From NCBI GenBank assembly GCA_964498585.1, contig CAZCHH010000003.1:9333-73332 (forward strand): a stretch of DNA of 64,000 bases, read 5' to 3'. Below, piece by piece: positions 3,242 through 39,830 of the stretch. Numbering within the stretch: position 1 is the first letter of the stretch; each line of letters opens with the position of its first letter. Under the pieces are notes generated by a model. It was not told where the DNA came from. It made no database searches and was given only the letters and a program-made list of their open reading frames with translations. Source of the DNA: an uncultured Hyphomicrobiales bacterium (lineage in GTDB: Bacteria > Bacteroidota > Ignavibacteria > Kapaibacteriales > UBA2268). The translations under genes were made by a program, and so were the position numbers.

Positions 3242-3565
3242 CATTTGTATTAAAATTCTTACCGATTAATTAATTGAGGATTTCAAAATAAGAGAACTTA
3301 TATTAAGAATATAACTGAACTTAAAAATTCCCTTAATTATTCCATTTTTTACCAGTATTTTTTTCTATATTTATATGAATTCTGTTTCTATTGCAATGAT
3401 TCATTCAATTCAAATACTATTTACATCTTTCATTTTATTATTATTATTAATTATTTCTTTAATAATTTTAATATATTTATTCATTTATTTATTTAACGTA
3501 TAAATTTATTTAGTTATCGTATTGATTTTATTTATTAAAATATATATTCTTTAATTAATTTAATT

Positions 3566-3790
3566 ACTATTTTGATTGATTGAATCACTACTTTGAATAA
3601 TTATATTACTACTTTGATTAATTTAATTACTACTTTGATTAATTTAATTACTACTTTGATTGATTTAATTACTACTTTGATTAATTTAATTATTACTTTG
3701 ATTGATTAAATCACTACTTTGAATAGTTAAATTACTACTTTAAATAGTTAAATTACTACTTTAATTAAATTAATTACTACTTTATATATT
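3566..3790. repeat. tandem array of about 10 copies of a 22-bp unit (attactactttgattaatttaa and variants)
   Basis: Direct reading shows repeated 'attactactttgattaatttaattactactttgattgatttaatt...' with point variants (gattgatt/gattaatt, gaatagttaa). It has no spacers and lies in an 840-bp AT-rich intergenic region. Confidence 0.85.
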
Positions 3791-3963
3791 GAAGCAGTGA
3801 AATTTTCAAAGAAAAATCAAAAAAATAAAAAATAATTATTCAGGAATAAAAATAAATTATTAATTTTATCAATATAATTATGAATATTATTAATTTGGTA
3901 ATAAAATTTAATAAAAACTTTTTCAAAATTCAGTAAACAAGCAACTTAGCAATAGGTTTTATA

Positions 3964-7556: not shown

Positions 7557-8537
7557 ATGGACAACAATAAAATTCAATTTTTATCTTTTATAATAATAGC
7601 AGTAGTATTTCTGTCGTCCTGTTCTGATAATTGCAATGAACCTACAAAAGAAGAGATAATTGGTTCTTATAAAGCTCATTTAGAAATAGTTGAGACTGTT
7701 ACCAATTCAATAGATGACGGATTGGAGCATATTTTTAATTCAGAAAAATATAAGGATATTAACAAAGTGCAAATAATTCAGGATTATTTAGAAAAAATCC
7801 GTTTTTTCTCTGATAATTCCGGTTATCTTTATTGCTATGATACTACTATGACAAATATAGCTCATCCAATACTTAAAAGCTATATTGGAACAAATCATCT
7901 AAACGACCAGGATGCTAACGGAAAATTCTTTGCTCTCGAAATGCAAGATAGTTTAAGAAAAGCTGGGCAGGGTGTAATTAGTCATTACTGGCTTAATCCG
8001 TCAAGCGGAGTTGATGAAGAAAAAATTGCATACATTAGATTAATTAACAATACCAAATACTTCATCGGTACTGGTTTCTTTAAAAGTTATTTGAAAGAAT
8101 GGAGTATATCAAAACTCGGTTTAAAAATGGAAGTAACACGTAATGCTGTCCAAGCAACTGCTCTTGGGCTTTCATATCTTTTCCAGACCAATTACAATAC
8201 AAAAGGAGAGCAAATTGAGTTTATGAAAACTTATATGGATTCTCTTCGGTTCTATAACGACAATTCAGGATATTTCTTCGTTGACGACACTAATCATTTT
8301 AGTATTGTTTTCCCAACAAGCAAGCACTACGAAGGAACTAGTTTAGTCGATTATCAAGACACAAAAGGGAATTATCCTGTTCGTCAAATGGTTGATATTA
8401 TAAAAAGGAATGGCAAAGGAAATACAGAATATTATTATATTAATCCGAAAAATGGAATTGAACAAAAGAAATTAGTATTTGTTGAAAAAATCAATGGAAC
8501 TGAATTTTTCATTGGTGCAGGAGTGTATGTGGAGTAG
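7557..8537 (+). CDS. lipoprotein with two tandem sCache_2-like extracytoplasmic sensor domains and no output domain
   Basis: Lipobox 'LSSCSD'. Two repeats match the sCache_2 hallmark: 'GYLYCYDTTMTNIAHP...ANGKFF...GQGVISHYWLNPSSGVDEEKIAYIRL...YFIGTGFF' and 'GYFFVDDTNHFSIVFP...TKGNYPVRQM...GKGNTEYYYINPKNGIEQKKLVFVEK...FFIGAGVY'. Confidence 0.75.
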   Translation: MDNNKIQFLSFIIIAVVFLSSCSDNCNEPTKEEIIGSYKAHLEIVETVTNSIDDGLEHIFNSEKYKDINKVQIIQDYLEKIRFFSDNSGYLYCYDTTMTNIAHPILKSYIGTNHLNDQDANGKFFALEMQDSLRKAGQGVISHYWLNPSSGVDEEKIAYIRLINNTKYFIGTGFFKSYLKEWSISKLGLKMEVTRNAVQATALGLSYLFQTNYNTKGEQIEFMKTYMDSLRFYNDNSGYFFVDDTNHFSIVFPTSKHYEGTSLVDYQDTKGNYPVRQMVDIIKRNGKGNTEYYYINPKNGIEQKKLVFVEKINGTEFFIGAGVYVE

Positions 8538-8632
8538 ATTAGAAAGATTAGATAGATTAGAAAGATTAGAAAGATTAGAAAGATTAGATAGATTAGATAG
8601 TTTAGATAGATTAGATAGATTAGAAAATAATT
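8535..8632. repeat. 9-bp microsatellite (GATTAGAWA)x~11 that begins at the stop codon of the Cache lipoprotein gene
   Basis: Sequence 'tagattagaaagattagatagattagaaagattagaaagattagaaagattagatagattagatagtttagatagattagatagattagaaaat'. Confidence 0.85.
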
Positions 8633-8880
8633 GACATTTTAAAATATTACTTAGTTAAATTTGTAAAAAATAAATTTGAAAACGCATTTATGAGTCCTCT
8701 CAAAAAAAGTCATACCTGTGAATACGGTTATCTAAAAACCATACTGGGAGTGGAATTTCGATTTCTCAGAAATGACATTTCATAGTTATTAGACTGGATG
8801 CATTTGTAATAAATTTATTATAATAACATAATTATATAACATTAAAATACTATAAATAAACAAACTATTAAATTAAAACT

Positions 8881-9270
8881 ATGGAAAAAACATTTCATAA
8901 ATATAGTTTTGAAAACCTTGAAGTATGGCAAATGGCAAAAGATTTTGTTAAAGATATTTATTTACTAACTAATACATTTCCAAATTTTGAGAAGTATTCT
9001 CTTACTAGTCATATAAACAGAGCAGCAATATCAATAGCTTCAAATATTGCTGAAGGCAGTACAAGAACAAATTTTAAAGACCAAGCTAGATTTTCTCAAA
9101 TAGCTTAAGGTTCATTAATGGAAATTCTTTGCCAAATCATTATAGCTAGAGAGTTAAATTATATTAATGATGAAGATTATTATAAATTAAGAAAAAAAAT
9201 TGAAACTATTTCATTTAAAATCAATTCATTGAGAAAATATCAATTAAAGAAAATCACGACTAAACAATGA
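8881..9270 (+). pseudogene. four-helix-bundle protein (23S rRNA intervening-sequence protein family) interrupted by an in-frame TAA at 9106..9108
   Basis: The N-terminal 75 aa ('...NIAEGSTRTNFKDQARFSQIA*') continue in the same frame after the TAA as 'GSLMEILCQIIIARELNYINDEDYYKLRKKIETISFKINSLRKY...'. The family-conserved 'F..IAKGSL.E' motif spans the stop, which sits where Lys is expected. Confidence 0.6.
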
Positions 9271-9328
9271 AATACTAAGCAAAAAAAATCTAAACAAAAA
9301 AAATCTAAACAATGAAAATCTAAACTAT

Positions 9329-10246
9329 ATGAAATTAAAACACATCGTAGAATCGCAACAATTTACAGTTCCATTACTTTTAGAACTGTTTGAACGAACA
9401 AATCAAATGAAAAAAATCGTAGCCCGTGGCGGAACGAGAGATTATCACAATAAAATTATGGCAAATCTCTTTTATCAGCCATCAACACGTACCCGTTTTT
9501 CATTTGAATCAGCAATGTATCGCCTTGGTGGAAGTGTAATCTCTACTGAACAGGCAACTGAATTTTCATCTGAAATAAAAGGTGAAATGCTAGAAGATAC
9601 AATCCAAATTATTTCTAATTATTGTGATGTAATTGTCTTGCGTCATGATGAGGAAGGCGGAGCTAAACGTGCCGCTGCTGTTTCTCCTGTTCCGATTATT
9701 AATGCTGGCGATGGCTCTGGCGGGCAGCATCCTACTCAGGCATTATTAGATTTATACACTATTTTTAATGAATGCCATACTCTTGATGGCTTGTCAGTTG
9801 CTATTATTGGCTCATTAGACCACGGAAGAACTGCACGCTCACTTGCATATCTGTTAAGCAAATTTGACAGAGTAAAGCTTTATTTCATTGCTCCTGATGA
9901 ATTGCAAATTAAGCAGGATATTTTGGAACATCTTGAAGAAAAAAATGTATGGTATCAACTATCAAATACAACTGAAGACATTATTAACAGAGTAAATGTA
10001 GTTTATCAAACCCGCATTCCAAGAGAACGGTTAAAGAATAAAGAACAGGATTTATCAACTTTTAATATTGATTCTACCGTTTTGCAAAAAATGAAATATG
10101 ATTCTATAATAATGCATCCATTACCCCGCTCTGTTGAAATAAATCCAGTAATTGACACTGACCCAAGAGCTGCATACTTCCGTCAGGCACAAAATGGATT
10201 GTATGTGCGTATGGCTTTGCTTACTATGGTTTTTGATGAAGATTAA
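9329..10246 (+). CDS. pyrB: aspartate carbamoyltransferase catalytic subunit
   Basis: 'STRTRFSFE', 'HPTQALLD' and 'HPLPR' motifs. Length 305 aa. Confidence 0.9.
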   Translation: MKLKHIVESQQFTVPLLLELFERTNQMKKIVARGGTRDYHNKIMANLFYQPSTRTRFSFESAMYRLGGSVISTEQATEFSSEIKGEMLEDTIQIISNYCDVIVLRHDEEGGAKRAAAVSPVPIINAGDGSGGQHPTQALLDLYTIFNECHTLDGLSVAIIGSLDHGRTARSLAYLLSKFDRVKLYFIAPDELQIKQDILEHLEEKNVWYQLSNTTEDIINRVNVVYQTRIPRERLKNKEQDLSTFNIDSTVLQKMKYDSIIMHPLPRSVEINPVIDTDPRAAYFRQAQNGLYVRMALLTMVFDED

Positions 10247-14574: not shown

Positions 14575-14900
14575 TTGTCATTTCTAATCACGAGATAAAG
14601 CAATTACTTAATTTAAATTGAAATGACATCGTTAAATCCGTCATTCTGACGTATGTCAAAATCCATCTTATTATTATTCAAAGCTATTCAATTTTAACTA
14701 TTTCATTGAAGCATTTGGGCTTGCACAAATGAAACATGTTAGCAAGCTCACTTGCTTTTCCAATATGGATTCTGGCATACGCCATAATGACAAGAAAAGA
14801 TGTCATTTCTAATCACGAGATAAAGCAATTACTTTATTTAAATTGAAATTACATCGTTAAATGCGCCATTCTGACGTATGTCAGAATCCATCTTTAAAAA
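14575..14900. repeat. two ~97-bp direct repeats (14575..14672 and 14806..14900) flanking further palindromic elements (cattctgacgtatgtcagaatc; ttgggcttgcacaaatg; ggattctggcatacgccataatgac)
   Basis: The two copies are near-identical: 'gtcatttctaatcacgagataaagcaattactt(a/t)atttaaattgaaat(g/t)acatcgttaaat(c/g)cg(t/c)cattctgacgtatgtca(a/g)aatccatctt'. Confidence 0.85.
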
Positions 14901-16676: not shown

Positions 16677-16776
16677 CTTTTAACACCTCCCCTGCCCCTC
16701 CTTGTAGGAGGGGAATAAGAACTGTCCTGTGTTTTAGCGTTCCCCCTCCTAACAAGGAGGGGAAAGGGGAGGTGTA
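16677..16776. repeat. GC-rich ~100-bp palindromic (cruciform-capable) element, copy 1
   Basis: 'cacctcccctgcccctccttgtaggaggggaataagaactgtcctgtgttttagcgttccccctcctaacaaggaggggaaaggggaggtg'. Outer stem is cacctcccct/aggggaggtg plus two inner hairpins (cccctcc..ggagggg). The overlapping 64-aa ORF 16664..16858 is judged spurious. Confidence 0.8.
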
Positions 16777-19646: not shown

Positions 19647-19742
19647 ATTTTTATTGGATTATAATACCTTGACATATGTCTGTTATTATGAATTCCATAA
19701 TAAAGAAAATATTTTATTTAAATGGAGATGATATAATTTTAT

Positions 19743-19845
19743 ACTGTCATTCTGAGCATCAGCTAAAAATCTACTCAACCATCGAATTAATCCGATAATT
19801 GATATAGAAATATAAGATTCCTCATTTCGTATCGGAATCACAAGA
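19743..19845. repeat. MITE-like repeat element (degenerate copy of the tgtcattctga...gaatcaca family)
   Basis: 'tgtcattctgagcatcagc...gattcctcatttcgtatcggaatcacaag' is related to the elements at 28787, 38481 and 49516. Confidence 0.6.
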
Positions 19846-19870
19846 AATCATCAACAGTAACCTATATTAT

Positions 19871-22800
19871 CTAATCCATCTGTAATAATTTATCAATTCT
19901 TTCCATAGTTTGCAAAGTAAATTCTAAAACGTTTATAACATTAATAAAATGCTGCAAATCACCAACAGTTAAAGAATGGTTTAGTTTTTTCCGCTCTGAA
20001 AGCCATTTTTCTAAAACCTGATAGCCACCAACTTTATATTCCCAAATCTCTTTAGGAACATTACTGAAATATCTGTTTTTATTGAAATAAATTCTATTGT
20101 TCTCATATTTTATTGAATCAACTTTAAAATTGTCGGTTTCACCTTCTGAGCGGCAATTCACAGAAACAGGGAATTTCTTTAAAAGATGAGCATTGATCAA
20201 TTCAGTCCCGATATTTGATAGTTCCAAAAACAATTCTTCATTATCAACAAAAGGAACACGCGGAAAATCTATTCTTAAAAATTCATTATATTTTTCTCTG
20301 AAATTTGGGCTGTGCAAAACTGCATAAATATAAGCAAATACCTGCTCCGGTGAATAAGCATTTTTATATTTATTTTTAATGAAATGCCTGAATTCCTTTG
20401 TAAAATTGTCCCTTTTTCCTTCCTGATTAAAAAGGAAATCGTTACCGTTAGAAATATAGTTTTTATCAATATATAAATACAGAGGAAAAAAATTAGTTGA
20501 TTCTTTTGTGAATCCAATATCACCAATAAATTCAGTTACAAAAATATGCTTCCATATATTTGTTTTTATTTGTCTTGGAATTGCAAGTGCAACAGAACCT
20601 TTTAAAATATGCTGCATAACATTAAACCTGTTAGTTCCTGGTTCAATAAAATCAAAATCGTAATATAAAAATCTTTTATCAAAAGGGCGATAATGATAAT
20701 CAATAATTTTTTCTTTGTTAAAATGCCCTTTTTCAAGAACCTTTTTTATTTTCCAATCTCTTGTATCATTTAAACCTAATTCTCTGTTTATTTCACTTTT
20801 ATCTAATTTCAAAAAAGTAGTAATTCTTTTTTCAATTAATTCTTTTTGCAGAGCTATTAAAAACTTGTCCCGATGAGTTTTTACTCCACTTGATTGAATT
20901 TTAAAAATTTCGTCAATTTTATAACCCTTTTTATATTCATCTCTATTAGTCCAATTCTTTTTTACAAAAAAATAAAATTCATCGTTAGGAAAAATTTGAT
21001 TCCATTTTACTGTTCTTAATGAATTGTTCCATAAAAACTCATATTTGCTTTTTTTAGTTCCAAATAAATCATAGTAATTAACAGTGGATTCATTGCTTTT
21101 ATTTGGATTCTTAATAAATAAAGAAATACAAACTCCCTGCATAATTTCAAAAACATTTTCATCTTTTGTTCCATCAGGAGATTTTTCACCGATTCTTGAA
21201 CTACCATGCAGGTTCATAATATAAATTTCATTAAACGTTTTCATCAACTCCAGTCTCATTCCTTTATGAATCAGACCATCAATATATGAATTATTTGATA
21301 TTATCCCTATTACACCGTTTTTTACATTTTCCATTTTCCAATGAGCAAAACGAATAAATTTAATGTAATCGTCTGAAAGTGGTTGAATATTCTTTTCATT
21401 TCTCACTGCTTCTTTATAAGTAATCATTTTTTCATCTGTAATAAAGCCGGCTTTGTTTTGACTGCTAACTGAGTAAGGAGGATTTCCAAGAATAACAAGA
21501 ATATCCTGATTCTTTATTCGGTTTGCTTCTTTACCTTCCTTCGAGAGGGCTGGCATAATTGGAAATGGCTGTGGCTCTTTATTTGTAAGTGTGTTTGTAA
21601 GAAAGATATTTATTCGTTTACTTTCGTCTAAAGAATAGCCAAGTTCTTTGATAAATTCAGTGATTTTTAATTGAGCAACGATATATGGAGCAACAAGTAA
21701 TTCAAATCCATAGAAATTATTAATTATTTGTTCATTTAATATTTTATTTACTGTTTGCCTGTCACCAAGCGTTTGTGCCTGTTCTAATGCAAGTTTGAAA
21801 GCGTTTAAAAGGAAAGTGCCGGTGCCTGTTGCAAAATCAAGCAAAGTAACTTTCTTATTGATTAAGCCATCGCTAAGTCCAAAAGTTACCTTTAAAATCT
21901 CTTCAATAGAACGAACGATAAAAGAAACTACCGGTTCAGGTGTATAATAAACACCTCGCAGTTCTCTTTGCGATTTGTCATAATTTGTAAGGAAATCTTC
22001 ATAAAAATAAATAAATGGGTCGTTGAATCCCTGGTCTTTGTTACGATAATCGGTAAATTCCTTTTTTATTGCAGTATAATCAGTTACTTTTAATATGTTA
22101 ATAATTTCATCTATTGCCCAGGTTATTTCTCTCGGAAAATCATCTAAACGATGGAATAATTCTTTAATTAAAGGAAAAGAATGGGGGAGAAGTGAAAATG
22201 CACTGCTTCTGTTAAGTTGTTTATGTGGTTCATCGCAGTTAAGTGCAGCTAAAAACAAAGAATATGTCAGTGTTTGAGCATAAATATCTGAAAAATATTG
22301 CGTTTCTAAAAGAGGAAGCAGCGATTCTTTGAACACTTCGTAAACTCCCTGCATAAGATTTGTTTCGTCTCTTTCCTTTTCCAATTCAATATAGCAGTAT
22401 TCCCTTAAAAAAGTAGCTTTTTCTGCAAGTTTAAAAGCAAGTGTTTCCACTTTGAAAATCGGCTCCGGCTCTGCTTCAAAAAATTGTTTTAAAAGCCGAG
22501 AAAGTTCTTCTGTTTTACTTTTTGCTAATTTTATTTCCTTTGATTTTAAATCTTCAACAGAGCAGAGTGTAGTATCAAAAACCACATCACCTTTTACAAG
22601 CAGGATAAAACGAAGATAATCAGTAAGAATAATATTATCGGAAAGTTGCTTATAACGTTCAATTTGCTCTGTATTAAGAGTTCTTTCCAAATCGGTGCCT
22701 AATTTTTTCGTTTCAAGCAAACCGATTGTTAATATATTTGGAGTAATTATTTTAAAATCGGGGCGCCCTTTTCCTTCAACCTGTGTTGGCTCGTGCTTAA

Positions 22801-22936
22801 TAATCAACTCACGGCTAATATTTTCACTTAAAAAACGATTAAGCATATTTTGCAAATATGTTCTGTATGAATGTTCCGAACTTTCACTATTCGAGACAAA
22901 CTCCTTTAATATACTATCAATGTATTCTTTAAACAT
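19871..22936 (-). CDS. single-polypeptide Type IIL/IIG restriction-modification enzyme (MmeI-like): N-terminal PD-(D/E)xK nuclease, gamma-class N6-adenine methyltransferase and C-terminal target-recognition region
   Basis: N-terminal 'GRPDFKII...LLETKK' (D..ExK), 'GVYYTPEPVVSFIV', motif I 'LLDFATGTGTFL' and motif IV 'LGNPPYSV'. At 1021 aa it is comparable to MmeI-family enzymes. Confidence 0.65.
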   Translation of the reverse strand: MFKEYIDSILKEFVSNSESSEHSYRTYLQNMLNRFLSENISRELIIKHEPTQVEGKGRPDFKIITPNILTIGLLETKKLGTDLERTLNTEQIERYKQLSDNIILTDYLRFILLVKGDVVFDTTLCSVEDLKSKEIKLAKSKTEELSRLLKQFFEAEPEPIFKVETLAFKLAEKATFLREYCYIELEKERDETNLMQGVYEVFKESLLPLLETQYFSDIYAQTLTYSLFLAALNCDEPHKQLNRSSAFSLLPHSFPLIKELFHRLDDFPREITWAIDEIINILKVTDYTAIKKEFTDYRNKDQGFNDPFIYFYEDFLTNYDKSQRELRGVYYTPEPVVSFIVRSIEEILKVTFGLSDGLINKKVTLLDFATGTGTFLLNAFKLALEQAQTLGDRQTVNKILNEQIINNFYGFELLVAPYIVAQLKITEFIKELGYSLDESKRINIFLTNTLTNKEPQPFPIMPALSKEGKEANRIKNQDILVILGNPPYSVSSQNKAGFITDEKMITYKEAVRNEKNIQPLSDDYIKFIRFAHWKMENVKNGVIGIISNNSYIDGLIHKGMRLELMKTFNEIYIMNLHGSSRIGEKSPDGTKDENVFEIMQGVCISLFIKNPNKSNESTVNYYDLFGTKKSKYEFLWNNSLRTVKWNQIFPNDEFYFFVKKNWTNRDEYKKGYKIDEIFKIQSSGVKTHRDKFLIALQKELIEKRITTFLKLDKSEINRELGLNDTRDWKIKKVLEKGHFNKEKIIDYHYRPFDKRFLYYDFDFIEPGTNRFNVMQHILKGSVALAIPRQIKTNIWKHIFVTEFIGDIGFTKESTNFFPLYLYIDKNYISNGNDFLFNQEGKRDNFTKEFRHFIKNKYKNAYSPEQVFAYIYAVLHSPNFREKYNEFLRIDFPRVPFVDNEELFLELSNIGTELINAHLLKKFPVSVNCRSEGETDNFKVDSIKYENNRIYFNKNRYFSNVPKEIWEYKVGGYQVLEKWLSERKKLNHSLTVGDLQHFINVINVLEFTLQTMERIDKLLQMD

Positions 22937-23052
22937 AGATTATTTTTTACTCAACTTTCATTGTTAATAAAATATAATAAATATAAAGTAGTAGTGCATT
23001 ACAAATAAGAATATGGATTAAAATTCTTAGAAAATACTACTTTAATTAATAA

Positions 23053-23154
23053 AACTTTTTACACCTCCCCTGCCCCTCCTTTTTAGGAGGGGAATAAGAA
23101 CTGTACTGATTTTAAGCGTTCCCCTCCTACCAAGTAGGGGCAGGGGAGGTGTAT
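23053..23154. repeat. GC-rich ~100-bp palindromic element, copy 2
   Basis: 'cacctcccctgcccctcctttttaggaggggaataagaactgtactgattttaagcgttcccctcctaccaagtaggggcaggggaggtg' has a 16-bp outer stem and shares its central sequence with copy 1. Confidence 0.8.
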
Positions 23155-23200
23155 TTTATGCTTTTTATACCAAACCACTAACAATAATGGCAGTATAATC

Positions 23201-23300
23201 TGTCATTCTGAAGCGTAGCGAAGAATCTCACAAGTCATTGCTAATATAGGACTTGATTCTCAGTCATGCTATCAACAAGTTGTTCGCATGACTTAAAATA
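23201..23300. repeat. MITE-like repeat element (tgtcattctgaagcgtagcgaagaatctcacaagtcattg... plus the 'caacaagttgttcgcatgac' palindrome)
   Basis: Shares TIR and core sequence with elements at 28787, 38481, 42300, 58860, 61080 and 63700. The 'caacaagttgttcg(c/t)atgac' part recurs at 54420..54445. Confidence 0.7.
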
Positions 23301-25266: not shown

Positions 25267-25980
25267 ATGAAAGCAAAGATACTTTCAATTCTAATTCTAA
25301 TTTTTGCAGTAACCTATGCAAATTCACAAACTGCTGAAATGATTATCGGCAAGGCAATCAACGCTATTGGAGGCGAAAAATCCTTTAAAAATATTAATTC
25401 TGTTGAATATAATATGACTTTAACAGGTATGGGACAGGAAATGCCTATGAAATTCTATAAAAAAGGTGAAGATAAATTTCGTTTAGAGATGAACTATATG
25501 GGACAAGAAATGATTTCTGTCTTTAATGGAAAATCTGGTTGGACTAAAACTGCTGGAAATGTAATAGAAGTTCCTGAAGTTGCTTTAAATGAGTATAAAG
25601 AACAGTTAAAATCTCAAGTCGCAGCTTTTGATATGCCTTTTCTTAATTATAAGGAAAAAAATATTACCTTTGAATTAATTGGGGAAGAGCCAGTAAATGG
25701 CATAGATGCTTATAAAATTGAAGCTACTTCCGCTGATGGCAATTCTACTCTATATATTGAGAAAGCTACTAATTTACTAATTAAAGCTACTTCAGTTCAA
25801 AACATTAACGGACAAAATATTGAAGCTGATGTATATATGTCTGACTATAAATCAGTTGGTTCATTAAAAATGCCTCATAAAATTGAATTAAAAAGCAATG
25901 GCGAAAATTTAGTTAATATTGTATTAACTTCTTTAAAAATCAACGAAAATATTGATGACAGTTTGTTTCAAAAGCCATAA
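25267..25980 (+). CDS. secreted hypothetical protein (paralog A; same family as 27835..28575)
   Basis: Signal peptide 'ILILIFAVTYANSQTA'. The N-terminus and the C-terminus ('LKINENIDDSLFQKP') are near-identical to the paralog downstream of the E2 gene. Confidence 0.65.
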   Translation: MKAKILSILILIFAVTYANSQTAEMIIGKAINAIGGEKSFKNINSVEYNMTLTGMGQEMPMKFYKKGEDKFRLEMNYMGQEMISVFNGKSGWTKTAGNVIEVPEVALNEYKEQLKSQVAAFDMPFLNYKEKNITFELIGEEPVNGIDAYKIEATSADGNSTLYIEKATNLLIKATSVQNINGQNIEADVYMSDYKSVGSLKMPHKIELKSNGENLVNIVLTSLKINENIDDSLFQKP

Positions 25981-25994: not shown

Positions 25995-27617
25995 ATGAAA
26001 ATTGATGTTGTTATGCCAAAAATGGGCGAATCTCTTCAGGAAGGCACTATTATTCGCTGGCTCAAAAATGTCGGTGATAAAGTGGAACGCGATGAAATGA
26101 TTCTCGAAATCTCTACCGATAAAGTTGACACTGAAGTTCCTTCCCCGGTAACTGGGGTAATTACTAAAATCCTTGCTCAAGAGCAGGAAACTGTTGAAGT
26201 CGGAAAAGTTATTGCAGAAATTGGAACTGATGCCGAAAATGCCGTTGTTGAAAAAACTGCTGAAGTCCCAAAGGAAATTATATCGGAAGCACAGCCAGTA
26301 AAACGGACAGAATCCGCTTCTTTATCTGCTGAAAATACAATAGAAGTTGTTATGCCAAAAATGGGCGAATCTCTTCAGGAAGGCACTATTATCCGCTGGC
26401 TAAAGCAAGTGGGCGACAAGGTAGAACGCGATGAGATGATTCTCGAAATTTCTACTGACAAAGTGGATACTGAAGTTCCAGCACCTGCCGGCGGAATACT
26501 TGTTGAAATTCTTGCTCAGGAAAAAGAAATAATCGAAGTAGGAAAAGTAATTGCAAGAATTGCAACTGGTGATACTCCTGCTATTTCTCAAACTGCTGTA
26601 TCTGAGCAAAAGGCAGTTGAGGAGCAAACTACTGAAATACCAGCAAGTTCCGGCAACAGGTTCTATTCGCCGCTTGTTCGTTCTATTGCTTCAAGCGAAG
26701 GAATTACCCTTGAAGAGCTTAATATGATTCAAGGCAGCGGTGCAGACGGCAGGGTAAACAAACAGGATTTGCTCAGTTTTATAGAACAAAAGAAGCAAAA
26801 ATTTTCTATTACTCCCCAGCCACCGAAATCGGTTGTTAAGCCGGAACCAGCCCAGCCGGTTAAAGTTATTAAGCCAGCAATTTCTCCTGTTCCACTTGGC
26901 GAAGATAAAGTAATTATTCCGATGGACAGGATCCGGCAAATCATTGCTGAACATATGATTTTCTCTAAAAAAACTTCTGCCCACGTTACAAGCGTTGCTG
27001 AAGCAGACGTTACTAATATTGTAAAATTCAGAGAAAGTTACAAAGACGAATTTCAAAAGCAGGAAGGATTCAAACTCACTTATACTGCTTTCTTTTCCAA
27101 AGCATTGATTGACGGAGTTAAGCAATTTCCAATGGTAAATGTAAGCGTTGAAGAAAAAAATATAATCCTTCACAAACGCATTCATCTGGGTTTTGCTACT
27201 GCTCTTGAGGACGGCAATTTAATTGTTCCGGTAATCAAAAATGCAGATAGCTTAAATTTAAGTGGCATAGCACGTTCAATATTCGATTTATCAAGCCGTG
27301 CAAGAAGCAAAAAGCTAAATCCCGACGACATTCAAGGCGGAACAATAACACTAACAAACGTTGGCACTTTCGGAACACTATTCGGAACACCGGTAATTAA
27401 TCAGCCGCAGTGCGCTATAATTGGAGTTGGTGCTATTCAAAAGCGTCCTGTAGTCCGCGAATTCAACGGTGAGCATCTGGTCGTTGTTCGCGATATGCTA
27501 TACGTTTCTATAACTTATGACCACAGGGTAATTGACGGTATGTTAGCCGGTCAATGCCTTGCTGCAATTACAAGAAATTTAGAAAGTATGAATCCGGAAA
27601 AAGAATTCGGTATGTAA
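25995..27617 (+). CDS. 2-oxo-acid dehydrogenase complex E2 component (dihydrolipoamide acyltransferase) with two tandem lipoyl domains
   Basis: Duplicated 'VVMPKMGESLQEGTIIRWLK.VGDKVERDEMILEISTDKVDTEVP' lipoyl domains, a peripheral subunit-binding domain 'SPLVRSIASSEGITLEEL...GSGADGRVNKQDL' and a catalytic 'DHRVIDG'. Confidence 0.9.
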   Translation: MKIDVVMPKMGESLQEGTIIRWLKNVGDKVERDEMILEISTDKVDTEVPSPVTGVITKILAQEQETVEVGKVIAEIGTDAENAVVEKTAEVPKEIISEAQPVKRTESASLSAENTIEVVMPKMGESLQEGTIIRWLKQVGDKVERDEMILEISTDKVDTEVPAPAGGILVEILAQEKEIIEVGKVIARIATGDTPAISQTAVSEQKAVEEQTTEIPASSGNRFYSPLVRSIASSEGITLEELNMIQGSGADGRVNKQDLLSFIEQKKQKFSITPQPPKSVVKPEPAQPVKVIKPAISPVPLGEDKVIIPMDRIRQIIAEHMIFSKKTSAHVTSVAEADVTNIVKFRESYKDEFQKQEGFKLTYTAFFSKALIDGVKQFPMVNVSVEEKNIILHKRIHLGFATALEDGNLIVPVIKNADSLNLSGIARSIFDLSSRARSKKLNPDDIQGGTITLTNVGTFGTLFGTPVINQPQCAIIGVGAIQKRPVVREFNGEHLVVVRDMLYVSITYDHRVIDGMLAGQCLAAITRNLESMNPEKEFGM

Positions 27618-27834: not shown

Positions 27835-28575
27835 ATGAAAAATTTTCTATCATTAATATTTCTAATTTTTGCAGTAACTTATGCAAATTCACAAACCGCT
27901 GATTCAATTATAAGCAAAGCAATAGACGCTATTGGAGGTGAAAACGCTTTGAAAAATATTAATACCATAGAATATAATATGACTTTAACAGGTAAGGGAA
28001 TAGATATGTCTATGATATATATTAAAAAAGCAAATGATAAAATTCGTGTAGAAATTAATACTGATGATGAGAATGTGATTTTTATTATGAATGGAAAAAC
28101 TGGTTGGCTTATTAATTCTGATAAAGTAGATGAAGTAGATGAAGATGATTTAGACGAGCTAAAAAAGCAATATGAAAATCTTATTGGAGTTTTTAATACA
28201 TACGATTACATTAATAAAGAAAAAAATACTACTTTTAAATTAATAGAAGAAGAGCAGGTTAATGGAATAGCTACATATAAGATAGAAGCTACTACTCCAG
28301 ATATAGATTATACTCTATATATTGATAAAGTTACATTTCTGCTTGTTAAAATGAGTACAGTTCGATATATTCATCAACATTTTGATGATAATAATTTTAA
28401 AGAACCAAATTTTTTCGATTTATACTTCTCTGATTATAAATCAGTTGGTTTAATCAAAATGCCTCATAAAGTAGAACAAAAAATAAATGTAGGTGTAGAA
28501 TTAATAACTAATTATGTTTTAAAAAATTTAAAAATTAATGAAAACATTGATGACAGTTTGTTTCAAAAGCCATAA
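27835..28575 (+). CDS. secreted hypothetical protein (paralog B)
   Basis: Signal peptide 'IFLIFAVTYANSQTA' and shared 'EYNMTLTG', 'YKIEAT' and 'LKINENIDDSLFQKP' segments with 25267..25980. Confidence 0.65.
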   Translation: MKNFLSLIFLIFAVTYANSQTADSIISKAIDAIGGENALKNINTIEYNMTLTGKGIDMSMIYIKKANDKIRVEINTDDENVIFIMNGKTGWLINSDKVDEVDEDDLDELKKQYENLIGVFNTYDYINKEKNTTFKLIEEEQVNGIATYKIEATTPDIDYTLYIDKVTFLLVKMSTVRYIHQHFDDNNFKEPNFFDLYFSDYKSVGLIKMPHKVEQKINVGVELITNYVLKNLKINENIDDSLFQKP

Positions 28576-28786
28576 TTTCATAGCTTCTGAATCTAGTGTA
28601 GTGATTTGTTAAAAGACTTACTATCTTGTTCATTCCGAACCCCCTGATAAAAAAGACTTTTATTTAAATAATGATGACATAAAGAGCTATCCCCCGCTGG
28701 CGGGGGACAAAGATGTCATTGGTAATCCCCTTAGAAAGCAAATGCTTTATTTAAATTGAGATGACAAAATTTTATACAGTCATTCT

Positions 28787-28862
28787 GAGCGCTGCGAAGA
28801 ATCCAGAAAAATTTCTTTAATCACTATTCTCTGGATTCTTCACTTCGTTTCGGAATGACAGT
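28787..28862. repeat. MITE-like element with perfect terminal inverted repeats (gtcattctgagcg ... cgtttcggaatgac) and internal inverted repeat (gaagaatccag/ctggattcttc)
   Basis: Direct reading. It is flanked by other family members (28640..28760: 'gatgacataaagagc', 'atgtcattggtaatcc'). Confidence 0.8.
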
Positions 28863-28939
28863 GTAAAGTTTTGTCATTTCCTTTTAAAAAAATCATTTGC
28901 TTTATCTAATTGTTGTAATGACAAAAAAAAGTAATGATT

Positions 28940-31900
28940 TTACTGGGAACTTTCTTTATTTTTTCCGATAACAGACATAATAATGCTGAACAATTCATTT
29001 TTTTCAATAGGTTTAGAAATGAAGGCATCGCAACCTGCATCAAGAGCTTCTTGCTTTTCGTCTAGATGTGAATAAGCAGTTTGAGCTATAATTGGTATAT
29101 TAGGATTCGAATTTTTGATTATTTTAGTAGCTTCAAAGCCGCTTAAGAGAGGCATTTTTAAATCCATAAGAACTAAATCGAATTTTTCTTCTTCAACTTT
29201 CTTTATAGCATCAAATCCAGTTTTCACCAAGGTAATCTGGACATTTTCATTTTTTAGTAACTGCTTTAAATAAAAATAATTAGTATTCTCATCTTCAACA
29301 ATAAGAATTTTCATTTGAGGAAGTCGAATTTTTTCTTTCTTTTCTTCACTGTTTTTTGGCATTATGTTACCTCCTTTGACGTAAAATAATGGAATACTTA
29401 AAGAAAATATTGAACCAACATTAAGTTCTGAATCAACAGATAAATCGAAATCCAAAAGCTTTGCAGTTTCTTTACAAATAGACAGACCAAGCCCAGTACC
29501 ACCAAATTTTGCATTTGAAAAAGCTTCATATTGCCAGAATCTTTCAAAAACTTTATCTATATATTCTTCATTTATACCAATTCCGGTATCTCTTACAGAT
29601 ATAATCAGCATATCTTCTTCAATTTTGAAAGCTAATTCAATTTCACCCTGTTTAGTAAATTTAATAGCATTATTCAATAAATTAATAATAATCTGATATA
29701 ATTTGTCTTTATCCGTAATCAGATATAGCTTCGATAATTCAAATGGTAAGTTAGAGATAAAATTAATTCCTTTTTCTTTAATTGTTTCACTATATAAAGA
29801 GTTAATATAATGAAACATTTCATCTAAAGAGAAGTTTGAAATATTTACCTTAGCCAGACCACTATCAAGGCGTGATATTTCAAGAACATCATTAACAATA
29901 GCCAGTAGTCTTTTTGAAGAGCTAATAATTAATTCAATATATTCATTTCTTTCGTCGTCAGTTAATTCGTTAAAATCCTGCAATAAATTAGAAAAACCGA
30001 CAATTCCATTCAGAGGAGTTCTAATTTCGTGAGACATATTTTGCAGGAAAGAGGTTTTTAATTTATCACTTTGTTCAGCTTTGTCTTTTGCGATTAGCAG
30101 TTCATTTTCCATTTTAATTCTATCAGAAAAATCAATACCAACGCCCATTAATAAAGTGCCTTCATTAGTATCAAGACGCTTGCCAATTATATGATAAGAA
30201 CAAATTTCACCGTCTTTGCGGATTAATCTAACGATACCTTGAGCTTCTCCTTTTTCAAGAGCAATTTTTATGGAATCCTGTAAGAGTTGTTTATCGTCAT
30301 CATATATAGAATTGAAAATGTTGTGAGCTCTAATAGTATCAGAATCCAACCCGACGAATCTTTCATTATTTTTATTGCACCTAATAATTTGCATATTAGA
30401 ATCGAACATAAAGAAAAGTCCGGGCAAGCTTTCAATCAGTTTGTCTGAAAAATATTTTTCATTTCTTAGCACCTCGTCATATTTTTCCATTTGAGTAATA
30501 AACCGGGCTTGCTGAACGTTTTGATAAGCAATATTAGACAACTGATTTGCTAAAGTAAAAAGAACCTGAGAAATCTTTTCAAATTCTTCTTTTGACATTA
30601 CTGGCACTTTGTGAAATGCTTCCAAGAAAAGATTTTTATCAACGCCAATATATTCTGCATATTTTGCCATATTTTCATCGGTTTGCGTTTCGTCTCGGAC
30701 TTGACCGATTAGCCAGTTAGCAATATGTTTTCCACCGACAGAAATACCTGCTCCGGCTTCCCAAAGTCCACCGCTAAGGCAGGGCTGAATTCTTGGACCA
30801 TCTAAAGAAATAACTCCTGATTCAGCATCAGATTTAATGCAGTTTTCAAGTCCTTTATCTGTTTTTCTAATTATATCTTTGCAAAGCGGGCAAAAATTGC
30901 TCGGTTGTGTGATAGAGCTTCCATCAGGATAAGTAATTAATGAAGCAACACCGGTTGCGTTAGCGAAATCATCCTGAAGTTTTTGAATTTCTTTTATATT
31001 AAATAAATCCTCAAATGTAATGTCTATGCTATCATTAATTGGTTGAGTTAATGCTATAATCCTTTTTTCAAGTGCTTCTTCTGCTCGCTTTTGTTTTGTA
31101 ATATCAATTACGGTCGATACCATCGAATCCTGTTCTGCCAAAGGAATATTTGCAACATTAATAAATTTAATATCACCATTTTTTGTATGAATTTTTAAAT
31201 TTTCCCAATGCATTCTGTTTTCATCTAATGATTTCATATCATTAGCTATTCTTGTTCTAATTTCACTCCTGTATTTTTCATCTGGAATAGCATTCATATA
31301 GAATTTATCAATATCACTTAAAATTTCTTTATTCCAGCCATTTATTTCTTCAAACTTATGATTGAAGTAAAAAACCTGATTATTGCTAATAGAATTAATT
31401 GCAATTCCAATAGGAAGATTATCCAAAACTGTTTGAATAAATTCATTCTTTTGTCTTAATTCTTCTTCATTCTTTTTCTGTTGAGTAATGTCGGTTGAAA
31501 TACCGCAGAGAGCAATAGGATTATTATTCAAGTCAAAAATTTTAGTTATTCTGCAATCTAAGATAATTTCTTCACCTTGTTTATTGTAATTAACAACTTC
31601 ACCTCTCCAGTGCCCATATTTCAGAGTATTTTCCAATATTTCATTTTGTGAAGCACCTTTTTGAATGTCATCACCAAACAAATTCACATGGGACCCAATG
31701 ATTTCATCTTTATTATAGCCGAGTAATTCGAGCTCTGCTTTGTTTATGTCAATAATGATACCATTCAAATCAGTTATAGTAACCTTATCCTGTATTTGAT
31801 TAATGACTAAAGATTTAAGATAAATTTGTTCTTCAGTTTTTTTCTTTTCTGAAATATCCCTAATAACGAAAACCATACCAACAGGTTGATTATTAATATC

Positions 31901-34900
31901 ATGAATCACATCGCCGTTTACTTCACATATTAACTCAAACCCATCTTCAAATCTTAATTTATATTCAATAATACCTTGAGGTTTATCAATCATTTTTTTT
32001 GCATTTTCGATAGCTCTTTCTTTATCTTCATCGGCAATAAAATCGAAAATATTTTTCCAATATACTCTTTCAATGGGTAACATATTGAATAATGGGAAGG
32101 AAGTTTCATTAATAAAAGTAATATGACCATTAATATCAGTCCTAATGATAATATCCGGAACTGTCATTATGAGTTTTCTGTGCAATTCTTCGCTATCTCT
32201 TAATGCTTCTTCAATTTGTTTTCTTTGATGAGTTTCTAAGCATAAAGAAATGAGGGAAGCAAGAGTTAAGGATAACTGAATTTCATCGGGCAACCATTTT
32301 CGATGCTGTCCGGTGTTTTCAAAACATAAAATAGCAGCAAGACGTCCCTGCGTCCAAACAGGAGCATCAAGCAATGATTTGGTATCTTTTTCAATAAAAT
32401 ATGATGAAGGGATTTGATTAGTTATCGGGTCTTCATATACGTTTTCGACAGCAATAATTCGCCCGGATTTATGTTCTTCAACATAATTTGGAAATTCTTT
32501 TGTAAACAATTTTAAACCTTTACTAAATGAGTCTTTTGATTTCTCATAAAGAGTTTTACAATACATTTCTGTATAATTTTGATTATAAATCCAGATACTT
32601 ACTCTTTCAGTATCTAACATAACAGAAGCTGTTTTTACAATTTTCCTTAAATTATCGCTAAATTTTCCGGAAACAAATTCTCCGTCTTTAATTAGTTCGG
32701 CAATATATGTGTTGAATTTTTGCTGACGAAAGTTATCTTCTATAATTCTTAGTTCTGTTTGCTTTCTTTCGGTAATGTCTCTCATTATTCCTAAGACCAA
32801 TAATAGTTCCTTTTCTTCAAGGACAACGGTGCTAACTTCAATTATCTTTAGTTCATTATTTTTACTGATTATTTCTATTTCATATAAGTTGCTAACTTCC
32901 TGATGAGAATATCTTGCTTCATATCTTTTTCTCATTAGTTCCTTACTTTTTTCAGTAAGCAATACATTAAAATCAAATTGAACGGAAAGCAATTCTTCGC
33001 GTGTATATCCGGTAATTTCGCAAAATCTCTCATTCACAAATTCATATTTTTTATCTCTAATTAAATAAATGCCGTCGAATGCATTTTCTACTAAACTTTG
33101 GAAACGTTTTTCGCTTTTCCTTACTTTTTCAATAACTTGTTTCTTCTCGGTAATATTTCTTATAATAGCTCCAAGCCCAACTTTAGCTGCTTTTAGTTTT
33201 ATTGGAAATTTGGTAACTTCAAATGTCTGATTAGCAACAAGTTCTTCAACTACAACTGTTTTTCCAGTCGATAAGGCAAGTTTATCACTATCCTTACATT
33301 TATCTGCTTCTGCTCTTTGCATTAACTGATAATCTGTTTTTAAAAGTATATCCTTTCTTTCTTTCTTTAAAAAATTACAATAAGCATCATTTGCAACAAT
33401 ATATCGAAGTGAATCATCTTTTACAAAAATAATATCAGTATTGGAGTTTATAAAGCGATTATAACGTTCTTCACTTTCACGCAATGATTCTTCTGTTTTT
33501 TTCCTTTCTGTTATGTCATGAATAACAGAGTAAAGCAATGGACGTTCGTTTATTACAATAGGTCCGCTATATACCTCGACATCTCTTAAAGAACCATCTG
33601 CTATAAGATGTTTAAAAATAAAACAATTTCTTTTTTCCTGCTGAGCCAAACTCATTTCATTTTGAACTTCTTTTTCGCCTAATATATTAATCTCAGAAAT
33701 TTTCTTTTGCAGTAGCTCTTCTTTACTCCATCTGTAAAATTTGACAGCGGCAGGATTTGCGTCAATTATTTCACCATTTTTTGGGTCAATAATCAGCATT
33801 ACAGCATGATTATTTTCGAATAAGCTGCGGTATCTTTCTTCACTGTCTTTTATTGCCAGTTCAGCAAGTTTTTGTTCAGTTATATCTGTAAATGTAATTG
33901 CAAAGTAACCTTTTTGGGGACAAAATGCTTTTATGTTATAGTATTTATTTAAGGTTTTTGAATGATTAATTAAATTTATAGATTTTCCAGTAAAAGCGAC
34001 TTCTTTAAAAATATTGACACGCGTATCTACTATGTTTGATAATGCTTCAGATGCTCTTTTTCCAATTAAATCTTCTTTTTTTACTCCGGAAATTTCTTCA
34101 AAAACTGAATTAATTTCAATAAATCTGTAATCAACTGGTTCATTATTTTCATCTAAAATAATTTCGTGCAAAGCAAAAGCTTCGTTCATATTTTCAAAAA
34201 GTGTTCTATACTTTTTCTCGCTTTCAATCAGAGCTTTTTCATTTTCTTTTAGTTTAGTAATATCACGGGCAACTGCAAAAATTACTCTTTCATCTGGATA
34301 AGGATAGATATTCCATGATAGCCATTTATATGTTCTATCTTTACATAAAAATCTAATACTATAATTCAATAAATCAATTTCATCAATAGTTTTTCCATAA
34401 ATATCATCTGGATGAATAAATTCTTTATATGGCTTTGAAAGAAGTGTTTGCAAATCCCAGCCGAGAGTTTTCTCCCAAGCCGGATTAAGGTGAGTAAAAA
34501 ATCCATCATAATTAGCAGTGCAAAGCATATCAACGCTAAAATTAAATACTCTGTCGCTTGCTTTAAGTTTTTCTTTAAGAATTATTTCTTCAGTTATATC
34601 GCTTGCAAATCCAAGTATAGTGTTATCAGTTATTTTTACAGCTTTTACTGACCAACTCCTGATTGAACCGTCTTTTAATTTAAAACGGAAATCTCCGGTT
34701 GCTTCGCCTTTTTCTAATATCCTTTGAAAGTGTTTTAATCCAATATCTAAATCTTCTTCATATACTATATCCCGTATATTTAATTTTATAAGTTCTTCCA
34801 GAGAATAACCAGACATTATCGCAGCTGAATTATTAATATTTATCAAATTTCCCTGATTGTCAGCTATAAAAACACCGTCTGGTGCATTATCAATATAGCT

Positions 34901-38294: not shown

Positions 38295-38480
38295 ACATTA
38301 GCTCCGCTTTTTTTAGCAAATTAGTAATTTCTTCTTAAAATTCAAAAATATTTTAAGCTGTATTGTTCAAATATTCAAAATAAACATATTATTACTCTTT
38401 CCCAAGTTGCACTTGGGAATGTAACTTTCACAAAAGCTATGCTTATACCAAGTTGTTTTTAAAAATATAATATGTTTATT

Positions 38481-38563
38481 TGTCATTCCGATACGAAGTG
38501 AGGAATCTCAAATGTAGTGATAACAAAGATTTGTGAGATTTCTCGCTGCGCTTCGAAATGACA
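38481..38563. repeat. MITE-like element (TIR tgtcattccga/tcgaaatgaca; internal inverted repeat gaggaatctcaaa/tttgtgagatttctc)
   Basis: Direct reading. 'cccaagt(t)gcacttggg' hairpins lie at 38385..38411 and 38645..38673 on either side. Confidence 0.8.
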
Positions 38564-38879
38564 CTTTCATTTTATCTATGAATGCTACTTGGTATTAAAC
38601 TCTTAATTCATAAAAAGAATGTAAAGCACAGATTAAAAAGAAATCTTCCTTCCCAAGTGCAATTTGGGAAGGAGTTCAAAAATTTAAATATTTTTAATTA
38701 AATTGTTTTTTTTCTTGTAAATAAAAAAAAAATTTTGTATTTTAATTTAAGATGAAATAATTAAAAAATTGAATAAATAAATATAATTTCAAGAAGTAAA
38801 ACAACTTACTTTATAGTTTAAAGTGTAGATTCGTAAAGAACTAATTAATAAATTTTCTACAATAAGGAGTTGCTTCATT

Positions 38880-39563: not shown

Positions 39564-39609
39564 AGTTTTATTTAAGTGGTTTTCAAAAAATTTAATTTTG
39601 TTTATCATT

Positions 39610-39830
39610 CTGAACCCCAAAATAAAGAAGACCTTTATTTAAAGGTTGATGACATAACTAAATTTGTGTCATTCTGACGGATGTCAGAATCCATTTTAAA
39701 AATAGTGTTTATAGGTCATTAGTTATTAGTCATTTGTATTTTTACTAACAACTAATGACTGAAAAGAACCATTTTCTTAATTATTTAAGAAAACAAAGAT
39801 GGATTCTGGCATACGCCAGAATGACATACA
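39610..39830. repeat. composite cluster of palindromic repeat elements (ataaagaagacctttatttaaaggttgatgacataa; cattctgacggatgtcagaatc; ggattctggcatacgccagaatgac)
   Basis: The same modules occur at 14640..14800, 45060..45300, 49600..49830 and 61170..61380. Confidence 0.75.

What the first reader, a model, noticed from the sequence alone, without database searches (positions are those of the whole stretch)
19871..22936. MmeI-like single-chain Type IIL restriction-modification enzyme flanked by repeat elements
The 1021-aa ORF has an N-terminal PD-(D/E)xK motif ('GRPDFKII...LLETKK'), the 'YYTPE' segment, methyltransferase motif I 'LLDFATGTGTFL' and motif IV 'NPPY', plus a ~350-aa C-terminal region consistent with a target-recognition domain. 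That layout matches MmeI-family enzymes, which cut about 20 bp from their site and methylate only one strand. The gene is bounded by MITE-like elements (19743..19845 and 23053..23300), consistent with a mobile defence islet. The recognition sequence would be new, and these TRDs are engineerable. BREX PglX is the main alternative, but it lacks the nuclease motif and no BREX partner genes are present.
Basis: partly seen in the sequence, partly recalled or inferred. Interest (0 to 1): 0.5.

Follow-up and report, generated by a model that had tools for sequence, protein, structure and literature searches.

The report
DrdV-type single-chain restriction-modification enzyme
This gene encodes an intact one-protein restriction-and-methylation enzyme from a very common, already characterised family (DrdV / Borrelia BBQ67 type, not MmeI), so it is ordinary apart from a swapped DNA-recognition segment that probably gives it its own target sequence.

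The parts
19871..22936 (-). Complete gene for a 1021-aa single-chain RM enzyme (nuclease-connector-MTase-TRD), including the stop codon
   Evidence: ORF list and translation. PADLOC REase_MTase_IIG, 825 bits. Profile versus DrdV E 3.5e-91 over the full length. AF2 model pLDDT 87.3.
22547..22936 (-). N-terminal PD-(D/E)xK endonuclease domain (aa 1-130). Catalytic E21, D60, E75, K77, plus the invariant Q91xxxY95.
22706..22762 (-). PD...ExK catalytic core (aa 59-77, PDFKIITPNILTIGLLETK), spacing D-X14-E-X-K
   Evidence: D is at the start of beta-2 and ExK at the end of beta-3 in the model.
22037..22546 (-). Helical connector (aa 131-300). In DrdV this region forms the dimer interface and positions the nuclease in trans.
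   Evidence: All-helical in the model. It aligns to the DrdV connector. It is 91% identical to the syntenic orthologue.
21017..22036 (-). Gamma-class N6-adenine DNA methyltransferase domain (aa 301-640). Motif I DFATGTG is at aa 367-373 (nt 21818-21838). Motif IV NPPY is at aa 485-488 (nt 21473-21484).
   Evidence: Pfam N6_Mtase 7e-11. Motifs are invariant in 50 homologues. It aligns to the LlaBIII, LlaGI and DrdV MTase.
19874..21016 (-). Target recognition domain (aa 641-1021), Type ISP-like
20491..21212 (-). Variable recognition cassette (about aa 575-815: end of the MTase Loop III region plus the TRD core), replaced relative to the syntenic orthologue in L001
   Evidence: Protein identity falls from 75-100% to 23-38% and recovers to 70-93%. 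Nucleotide and third-codon identity fall to background. blastn homology blocks stop at 21213 and resume at 20490. DrdV base contacts D803 and K807 map into it. Its GC3 is 0.159 against 0.24-0.26 for the rest of the gene.
19775..19802 (-). Terminator-like hairpin plus T-run about 70 nt downstream of the stop codon. It lies inside the downstream repeat element.
   Evidence: Consensus scan only. Fold of 19740-19870, minus strand. Weak evidence.
19681..19851 (.). Downstream intergenic dispersed repeats (GTCATTCTGAGC-type units). Context only, not functionally tied to the gene.
   Evidence: Families D6 and D8 and pairs I14, I23, I24 have copies at 14576, 28714, 38472, 42172, 45240, 61325 and 63635. 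21 matches against 3.25 expected.
23034..23300 (.). Upstream intergenic repeats between the TrpRS stop and the RM start: the 94-nt GC-rich palindrome (23060-23153) and a GTCATTCTGA/GAATCTCACAAGT unit (23197-23246). Context only.
   Evidence: (D10, D18). They are absent in L001, where TrpRS and the RM gene overlap. Copies of the same families occur in L086.

Best explanation
The gene encodes an intact, stand-alone Type IIG/IIL restriction-modification enzyme of the DrdV type. This is the helicase-less branch of the lineage that also gave rise to the Type ISP enzymes. Other members are the Borrelia BBE02/BBQ67 enzymes and, going by the literature, the Thermus TaqII/TspGWI family. Proposed mechanism, inferred from homologues rather than shown here: the MTase and TRD clamp a short (about 5-7 bp) asymmetric site. 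The target adenine is flipped into the NPPY pocket and methylated with SAM on one strand only, which protects host DNA. On unmethylated foreign DNA carrying several sites, site-bound protomers associate through the helical connector. Each N-terminal PD-(D/E)xK nuclease is delivered in trans to a neighbour's DNA. Two nuclease domains then make a double-strand cut at a fixed short distance downstream, about 10/8-11/9 nt, not the 20/18 of MmeI. Specificity resides mainly in a roughly 240-aa cassette (aa ~575-815). In this lineage that cassette has been exchanged by recombination between otherwise orthologous genes, so this enzyme very probably recognises a different sequence from its syntenic orthologue. 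Shown here: the gene is intact; the domain order and folds; all catalytic residues are conserved; there is no helicase and no partner gene; the cassette is mosaic; the gene is present or absent among relatives. Inferred: enzymatic activity, single-strand methylation, multi-site requirement, cut distance and the recognition sequence.
Against: No activity, methylome or cleavage data exist for this protein. DrdV's fifth active-site residue K94 is not conserved: the query has E90 there, and the invariant Q91 follows. The connector carries about a 16-aa insertion relative to DrdV, so the cut distance could differ. The DrdV oligomer-interface residues were not examined. Identity to DrdV is only about 21-23%, so mechanistic transfer is by fold and architecture. 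Chromosomal position among housekeeping genes and conserved synteny in one relative could also fit a domesticated, regulatory methylase role. The lp56 gene is equated with bbq67 by location only, because the record uses new locus tags.
Confidence: 0.8

Rival explanations
1. It is a member of the MmeI family proper and cuts about 20/18 nt from its site.
Against: There are no MmeI_N, MmeI_hel, MmeI_TRD or MmeI_C hits. NCBIfam gives no hit. The family profile does not find MmeI (5HR4) in the PDB even at E<=10. DrdV and LlaBIII score more than 30 orders of magnitude better. The nuclease spacing is D-X14-ExK, whereas MmeI has D70-X9-E80-X-K82. The TRD is Type_ISP_C.
Confidence: 0.03
2. It is a BREX PglX/BrxX-type methyltransferase or another methylase that works only with partner proteins, and it is not itself a nuclease.
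Against: No PADLOC PglX model or NCBIfam model hits. No BREX or other defence genes appear among the neighbouring ORFs scanned, from about 9 kb on one side to about 14 kb on the other. Of the remaining large ORFs in the window, those scanned with Pfam show no BREX-type domains. A complete, conserved PD-(D/E)xK nuclease domain is present. Homologues act alone: DrdV is active as a purified protein, and BBE02/BBQ67 are thought unlikely to need accessory proteins.
Confidence: 0.02
3. It is a Type ISP enzyme, as NCBI names its homologues: an ATP-driven translocating enzyme that cleaves at distant collision sites.
For: The MTase-TRD is closest in sequence to LlaBIII and LlaGI, and Pfam names the C-terminus Type_ISP_C. 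Sources annotate homologues as 'type ISP restriction/modification enzyme' or 'predicted helicase'.
Confidence: 0.02
4. The gene is retained mainly as a chromosomal single-strand m6A methylase with regulatory (epigenetic) effects, and its restriction activity is weak or lost despite intact motifs.
For: It sits among housekeeping genes, with native composition and conserved adjacency to TrpRS in a relative. Methylation by BBE02 and BBQ67 alters the Borrelia transcriptome. DrdV's K94 is not conserved.
Against: E21, D60, E75, K77, Q91 and Y95 are conserved in 49-50 of 50 homologues, which indicates purifying selection on the nuclease. TRD cassette turnover and presence/absence among close relatives are typical of active defence genes. 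The two roles are not mutually exclusive.
Confidence: 0.1

Closest known systems
DrdV (Deinococcus wulumuqiensis 479; PDB 7LO5/7LVV), Type IIL single-chain RM enzyme
   Different: Identity is only about 21-23%. DrdV K94 is replaced: E90 sits at that position and the invariant Q91xxxY95 follows. The connector has about a 16-aa insertion. The TRD core is unrelated in detail, so the target will not be CATGNAC. Cut distance and oligomeric mechanism are untested here.
Borrelia burgdorferi BBQ67 (lp56) and BBE02 (lp25) bifunctional RM enzymes
   Same: These are the closest genetically characterised relatives found. The lp56 enzyme is 38% identical over aa 11-1019, including the nuclease motifs. They are stand-alone genes, methylate single strands of short asymmetric motifs (CGRKA, GNAAYG) and form a barrier to transformation.
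   Different: They are plasmid-borne in a spirochaete, whereas this gene is chromosomal in an Ignavibacteria-like genome. The TRDs differ. Their cleavage positions have not been reported in the paper read. The identity of the lp56 gene with bbq67 is by location only.
[quoted passage not shown]
   Different: Type ISP enzymes carry an Mrr-type nuclease and an SF2 ATPase, translocate and cut at distant collision sites. This protein has no ATPase, and its nuclease is of the DrdV/BpuSI kind.
Thermus-family Type IIC/IIG/IIL enzymes (TaqII, TaqIII, TspGWI, TspDTI, TsoI)
   Same: They are single chains of about 1100 aa, methylate one strand of asymmetric sites, cut 11/9 downstream and have TRDs 'remarkably similar' to Type ISP TRDs. 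TaqII and TaqIII are 93% identical with different specificities. Nine Thermus plasmid records match the query.
   Different: No direct sequence comparison could be made here because no Thermus sequence was retrieved. The relationship therefore rests on the literature.
MmeI family (PDB 5HR4), Type IIL
   Same: The functional logic is the same: one polypeptide, PD-ExK nuclease at the N-terminus, gamma-MTase, one TRD, single-strand methylation, a requirement for two or more sites and no partner genes.
   Different: No detectable sequence relationship exists beyond the generic MTase core. TRD, helical and N-terminal Pfam families differ. MmeI has D-X9-ExK spacing and cuts 20/18.

Membership tests
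MmeI family (Morgan et al. 2009 criteria, PMC2731913) | Significant similarity (E<1e-20) to MmeI over its entire length | tested here: not met
   The family profile does not hit MmeI (5HR4) in the PDB at E<=10. Pfam MmeI_N, MmeI_hel, MmeI_TRD and MmeI_C are absent, and MmeI_Mtase scores 28.5 bits against a 27-bit cut-off. NCBIfam gives no hit.
MmeI family | PD-ExK residues aligning with MmeI D70, E80, K82 (D-X9-E-X-K) | tested here: inconclusive
   A PD-ExK site is present, but its spacing is D60-X14-E75-X-K77, the DrdV spacing. The MmeI nuclease is disordered in 5HR4, so no structural superposition is possible.
MmeI family | Cleavage about 20/18 nt downstream and methylation of one strand | not testable with these tools
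   This needs biochemistry or a methylome. The closest homologue, DrdV, cuts 10/8.
DrdV-type Type IIL enzymes | Full-length homology and fold: nuclease, helical connector, gamma-MTase, TRD in about 1000-1050 aa | tested here: met
DrdV-type Type IIL enzymes | Nuclease active site E25, D64, E79, K81 (plus K94) | tested here: met
DrdV-type Type IIL enzymes | Single-strand m6A methylation, multi-protomer trans cleavage at 10/8 | not testable with these tools
   Inferred from DrdV and from the single-strand motifs of BBE02 and BBQ67.
Type ISP (LlaGI/LlaBIII) | SF2 helicase-like ATPase domain between nuclease and MTase | tested here: not met
   There is no helicase Pfam hit and no Walker A or DEAH motif. 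The protein is 1021 aa, and the LlaBIII alignment starts after its ATPase, at residue about 749-845.
Type ISP (LlaGI/LlaBIII) | Type ISP MTase-TRD unit including the C-terminal specificity/guide domain | tested here: met
BREX PglX/BrxX | Match to PglX models and lack of a nuclease domain | tested here: not met
   No PglX model appears among the PADLOC hits and NCBIfam gives none. A conserved PD-(D/E)xK domain is present. PglX is only a distant fold match.
BREX PglX/BrxX | Co-located BREX genes (brxA/B/C, pglZ, brxL) | tested here: not met
   Neighbours are HPr kinase, an S41 protease, TrpRS, ThyX, a LolA-like protein and E2 acyltransferase. None has a PADLOC hit other than generic domains. Only the 64-kb window could be examined.
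Type IIG (combined R and M in one polypeptide) | Endonuclease and methyltransferase domains in a single chain with its own TRD | tested here: met
   Domain evidence as above. Four PADLOC REase_MTase_IIG models hit.
Thermus family (TaqII/TspGWI) | Sequence homology to TaqII, TaqIII or TspGWI | not tested
   No Thermus sequence could be fetched: CP010825.1 is not in the collection. The evidence is indirect: 9 Thermus plasmid matches and the literature statement on Type ISP-like TRDs.

The most novel reading that the evidence does not exclude
The window enzyme and its syntenic orthologue (L001) form a natural pair. A cleanly bounded, roughly 240-aa module (aa ~575-815, nt 20491-21212) has been swapped on a scaffold 75-100% identical in sliding 40-residue windows. 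If the two enzymes are active with different, previously unlisted recognition sequences, the pair would define the transplantable specificity module of the DrdV, Thermus and Borrelia type IIL enzymes. It would also add a new specificity with short-reach (about 10/8) cutting.
Probability: 0.4. Interest if true: 0.35.

Novelty: new member of a known kind. Interest (0 to 1): 0.22.

Why it matters
Practically, the result corrects the family assignment, and with it the expected cut geometry (about 10/8-11/9 rather than 20/18). It also shows that the NCBI label 'type ISP restriction/modification enzyme' is being applied to helicase-less DrdV-type enzymes. Biologically the enzyme is one of at least 7,800 homologues across bacteria and archaea, so its existence is unsurprising. 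The modest point of interest is the sharply bounded recognition-cassette replacement between orthologous genes at the same chromosomal site. This repeats in the Type IIL branch the LlaGI/LlaBIII pattern known from Type ISP enzymes. It suggests where to cut and paste when engineering specificities in this family. If the host is ever cultured or manipulated genetically, this gene would be a predictable transformation barrier, as BBE02 and BBQ67 are in Borrelia.

Tried and rejected
(1) The plus-strand reading of the given coordinates contains only stop codons. The gene is on the minus strand.
(2) NCBIfam gave no hit, and Rfam gave no family for the whole window, including the flanking repeats.
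(3) An exact-protein look-up of the window enzyme found nothing on record.
(4) A genome-contig scan with the adjacent TrpRS returned only Clostridia and other loci at <=62% identity and no close relatives. The protein-index route replaced it.
(5) The Thermus plasmid CP010825.1 is not in the collection, and a 'spread' listing of plasmid hits showed no Thermus row. Homology to TaqII and TaqIII could not be tested directly.
(6) I tried to read the specificity from the Type ISP recognition code. Loop III maps cleanly: LlaGI Q1118 and K1131 correspond to query S580 and N594, the pattern of enzymes that do not read position -1. DrdV, however, appears (by my reading of the alignment) to have Asn at the K1131-equivalent position and still reads that base. 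Loop V maps ambiguously onto query 763-770 (FIEPGTNR). I make no motif prediction.
(7) Phase-variable simple repeats in the gene: none.
(8) Compositional evidence for recent horizontal transfer of the whole gene: none. GC is 0.300 and GC3 0.227, against 0.329+-0.037 and 0.257+-0.05 for window ORFs. Only the cassette is AT-richer (GC3 0.159).
(9) The sigma-70-like promoter at 22967-22939 ends 3 nt before the ATG, and such matches are no commoner than in shuffled sequence (25 against 19.8+-4.9). I do not rely on it.
Full report
OBSERVATION. The ORF at 19871..22936 is real, but it lies on the minus strand: 1021 aa with an ATG start. The plus-strand frame is full of stops. Repeat elements occur on both sides of the gene.

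WHAT THE PROTEIN IS. Pfam finds N6_Mtase (aa 308-516) and, very strongly, Type_ISP_C (aa 676-990, E 2.9e-78). The generic MmeI_Mtase model scores at threshold (28.5 against 27 bits). None of the MmeI-specific N-terminal, helical, TRD or C-terminal models hit. PADLOC assigns it to REase_MTase_IIG models (best 825 bits) and returns no PglX hit. NCBIfam returns nothing. Against solved structures, the single sequence hits LlaBIII (4e-53, aa 308-1017), LlaGI, and DrdV (9e-40, aa 144-984). A profile of 50 homologues (A1) aligns end to end with DrdV (E 3.5e-91; profile 3-991 against DrdV 7-979). It aligns with LlaBIII and LlaGI only from the MTase onward. Even at E<=10 it finds no MmeI, BpuSI or PglX.

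RELATIVES AND PRECEDENT. The family is very large and broad. At least 7,886 proteins match at E<=1e-10, mostly 1,000-1,050 aa, from Ignavibacteria, Kapabacteria, Planctomycetes, Nitrospira, Bacteroidia and archaea. Among plasmids, 373 records match. The B. burgdorferi B31 lp56 gene at 40436-43696 is 38% identical over aa 11-1019, nuclease motifs included. By location this is bbq67. Casselli et al. show that BBE02 and BBQ67 are bifunctional enzymes. They restrict transformation and methylate one strand of GNAAYG and CGRKA respectively. DrdV methylates one strand of CATGNAC and cuts 10/8 downstream. It does so only when three or four site-bound protomers assemble with nuclease domains swapped in trans. 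Its authors note that its MTase-TRD is highly similar to those of LlaGI and LlaBIII. The Thermus family (TaqII, TaqIII, TspGWI) likewise has Type ISP-like TRDs, methylates one strand and cuts 11/9. I could not compare those sequences directly.

MECHANISM (inferred). The enzyme binds a short asymmetric site through the MTase and TRD. It flips the adenine into the NPPY pocket and methylates one strand with SAM. On multi-site unmethylated DNA, protomers assemble through the helical connector and the nuclease domains. Cleavage is in trans at a short fixed distance, about 10/8-11/9.

CONTEXT AND THE 'MOBILE ISLET'. The neighbours are housekeeping genes: HPr kinase, an S41 protease and a 273-aa ORF on one side; TrpRS, ThyX, a LolA-like protein and E2 acyltransferase on the other. 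None of the neighbouring ORFs scanned, from about 9 kb on one side to about 14 kb on the other, has a meaningful PADLOC hit. The flanking repeats belong to families dispersed through the window. GTCATTCTGAGC has 21 matches against 3.25 expected, in at least 10 intergenic regions. The GC-rich palindrome at 23060-23153 (MFE -64 kcal/mol, z -10) has another copy near 16684. Rfam knows none of them. The gene's composition is native.

In L001, whose enzyme is 71% identical, the gene abuts the same TrpRS-ThyX-LolA-like-E2 cluster with no intergenic repeats at all. The repeats are therefore later, independent insertions and not the vehicle of the gene. In L086, the closest relative found (91% nt identity over 4.4 kb; TrpRS 98% aa), collinearity stops exactly at the TrpRS stop codon. 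Repeats and unrelated genes follow, with no RM gene. Relatives with TrpRS about 75% identical also lack it. The gene is thus an accessory, patchily distributed gene at a rearrangement-prone junction. Parsimony favours ancestral presence with loss or rearrangement in L086. Misassembly of that MAG contig at the repeats cannot be excluded.

CASSETTE EXCHANGE. Against the syntenic orthologue P0002, identity is 75-100% over aa 1-560. It collapses to 23-38% over about aa 570-810 and returns to 70-93% over aa 820-1000. The housekeeping neighbours are 69-92% identical. At the DNA level, identity and third-codon identity fall to background in the cassette. blastn homology stops at 21213 and resumes at 20490. 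The window's cassette resembles those of other Ignavibacteria-clade members (47-51%). P0002's cassette has no close relative among the 120 hits (<=38%). The window cassette is also AT-richer than the rest of the gene (GC3 0.159 against 0.24-0.26). DrdV's TRD base contacts D803 and K807 map into the cassette. This is recombinational replacement of the recognition module. It has precedent in LlaGI/LlaBIII, which are more than 95% identical outside the TRD, and in TaqII/TaqIII. It implies that the two orthologues recognise different sequences.

I tried to read the specificity from the Type ISP code and found it inconclusive. The S580/N594 pattern at the LlaGI Q1118/K1131 positions suggests no reading of the base beyond the methylated adenine. 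DrdV appears to break that rule, however, and Loop V maps ambiguously.

VERDICT. It is wrong on family (DrdV / Borrelia / Type ISP-derived, not MmeI), on the expected cut distance, and on the MITE-bounded islet. The enzyme is a new member of a well-populated, structurally and genetically characterised kind. The swapped recognition cassette is a tidy but precedented feature. Interest 0.22.

Noticed in passing
window 23060-23153 (also about 16684-16745; L086 7171-7310): A 94-nt GC-rich near-perfect palindrome (CACCTCCCCTGCCCCTCC...GGGGCAGGGGAGGTG) in a genome of about 30% GC. RNA MFE is -64 kcal/mol with z = -10 on either strand. It is a dispersed element with copies elsewhere in the window and in the related contig L086. 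It has no Rfam family. It sits between the TrpRS stop and the RM start, and is absent at that junction in L001.
   Followed up: partly
window, at least 10 intergenic regions (e.g. 14576-14900, 28590-28920, 38470-38700, 39596-39870, 45052-45300, 49481-49830, 61032-61400, 63635-63790): Several interrelated families of 40-120-nt dispersed repeats built around GTCATTCTGA(G/C)..., GAGGAATCTCACAAGT and TTTATTTAAAT units. They occur in both orientations and fill most intergenic spacers: 21 core matches against 3.25 expected. The same families populate L086. They are REP- or MITE-like, and their function is unknown.
   Followed up: partly
window 52793-54298 (-): A second DNA methyltransferase: 501 aa, N6_N4_Mtase (beta-class), with PADLOC Type II and Type III MTase models at about 1e-50. 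It is flanked by truB (51548-52279) and tgt (54599-55723), and no recognisable endonuclease partner is nearby. It is probably an orphan MTase. The 462-aa ORF at 49854-51242 has no Pfam or PADLOC hit.
   Followed up: partly
window 20491-21212 within the RM gene: The recognition cassette has a markedly lower GC3 (0.159) than the rest of the same gene (0.24-0.26) and than window ORFs (0.257+-0.05). This is consistent with a different origin for the cassette.
   Followed up: partly
window 25267-25980 and 27835-28575; 26000-26232 and 26339-26571: Two paralogous LolA-like/TP_0789-like genes (73-79% nt identity over 158-219-nt blocks) bracket the E2 acyltransferase gene. The E2 gene itself carries a tandem duplication of its lipoyl domain (79% nt identity).
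   Followed up: no
window 28940-35914 (-): A 2324-aa hybrid sensor kinase with a 5TMR-LYT membrane domain, multiple PAS and GAF domains, a PocR domain, HisKA/HATPase and a receiver domain. It is unusually large.
   Followed up: no
window 3486-3804 and 8526-8635: Tandem repeats: a 21-bp unit in at least 11 overlapping register copies, and a 9-bp AGATTAGAW unit in about 12 copies. The second begins at the 3' end of the ORF 7557-8537. A 15-bp A-rich repeat lies at 9260-9339.
   Followed up: no
L005 (B. burgdorferi B31 lp56, NC_000956.1 40436-43696) and many plasmid records: RefSeq/PGAP names helicase-less enzymes of about 1,000-1,090 aa of this family 'type ISP restriction/modification enzyme', while true Type ISP Lactococcus genes are labelled 'DEAD/DEAH box helicase'. 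The naming does not separate the two architectures.
   Followed up: partly
L001 10511-11353: In the syntenic relative, a separate 280-aa N6_N4_Mtase gene lies about 3 kb from the RM orthologue, next to recA. No counterpart exists at the corresponding place in the window.
   Followed up: no
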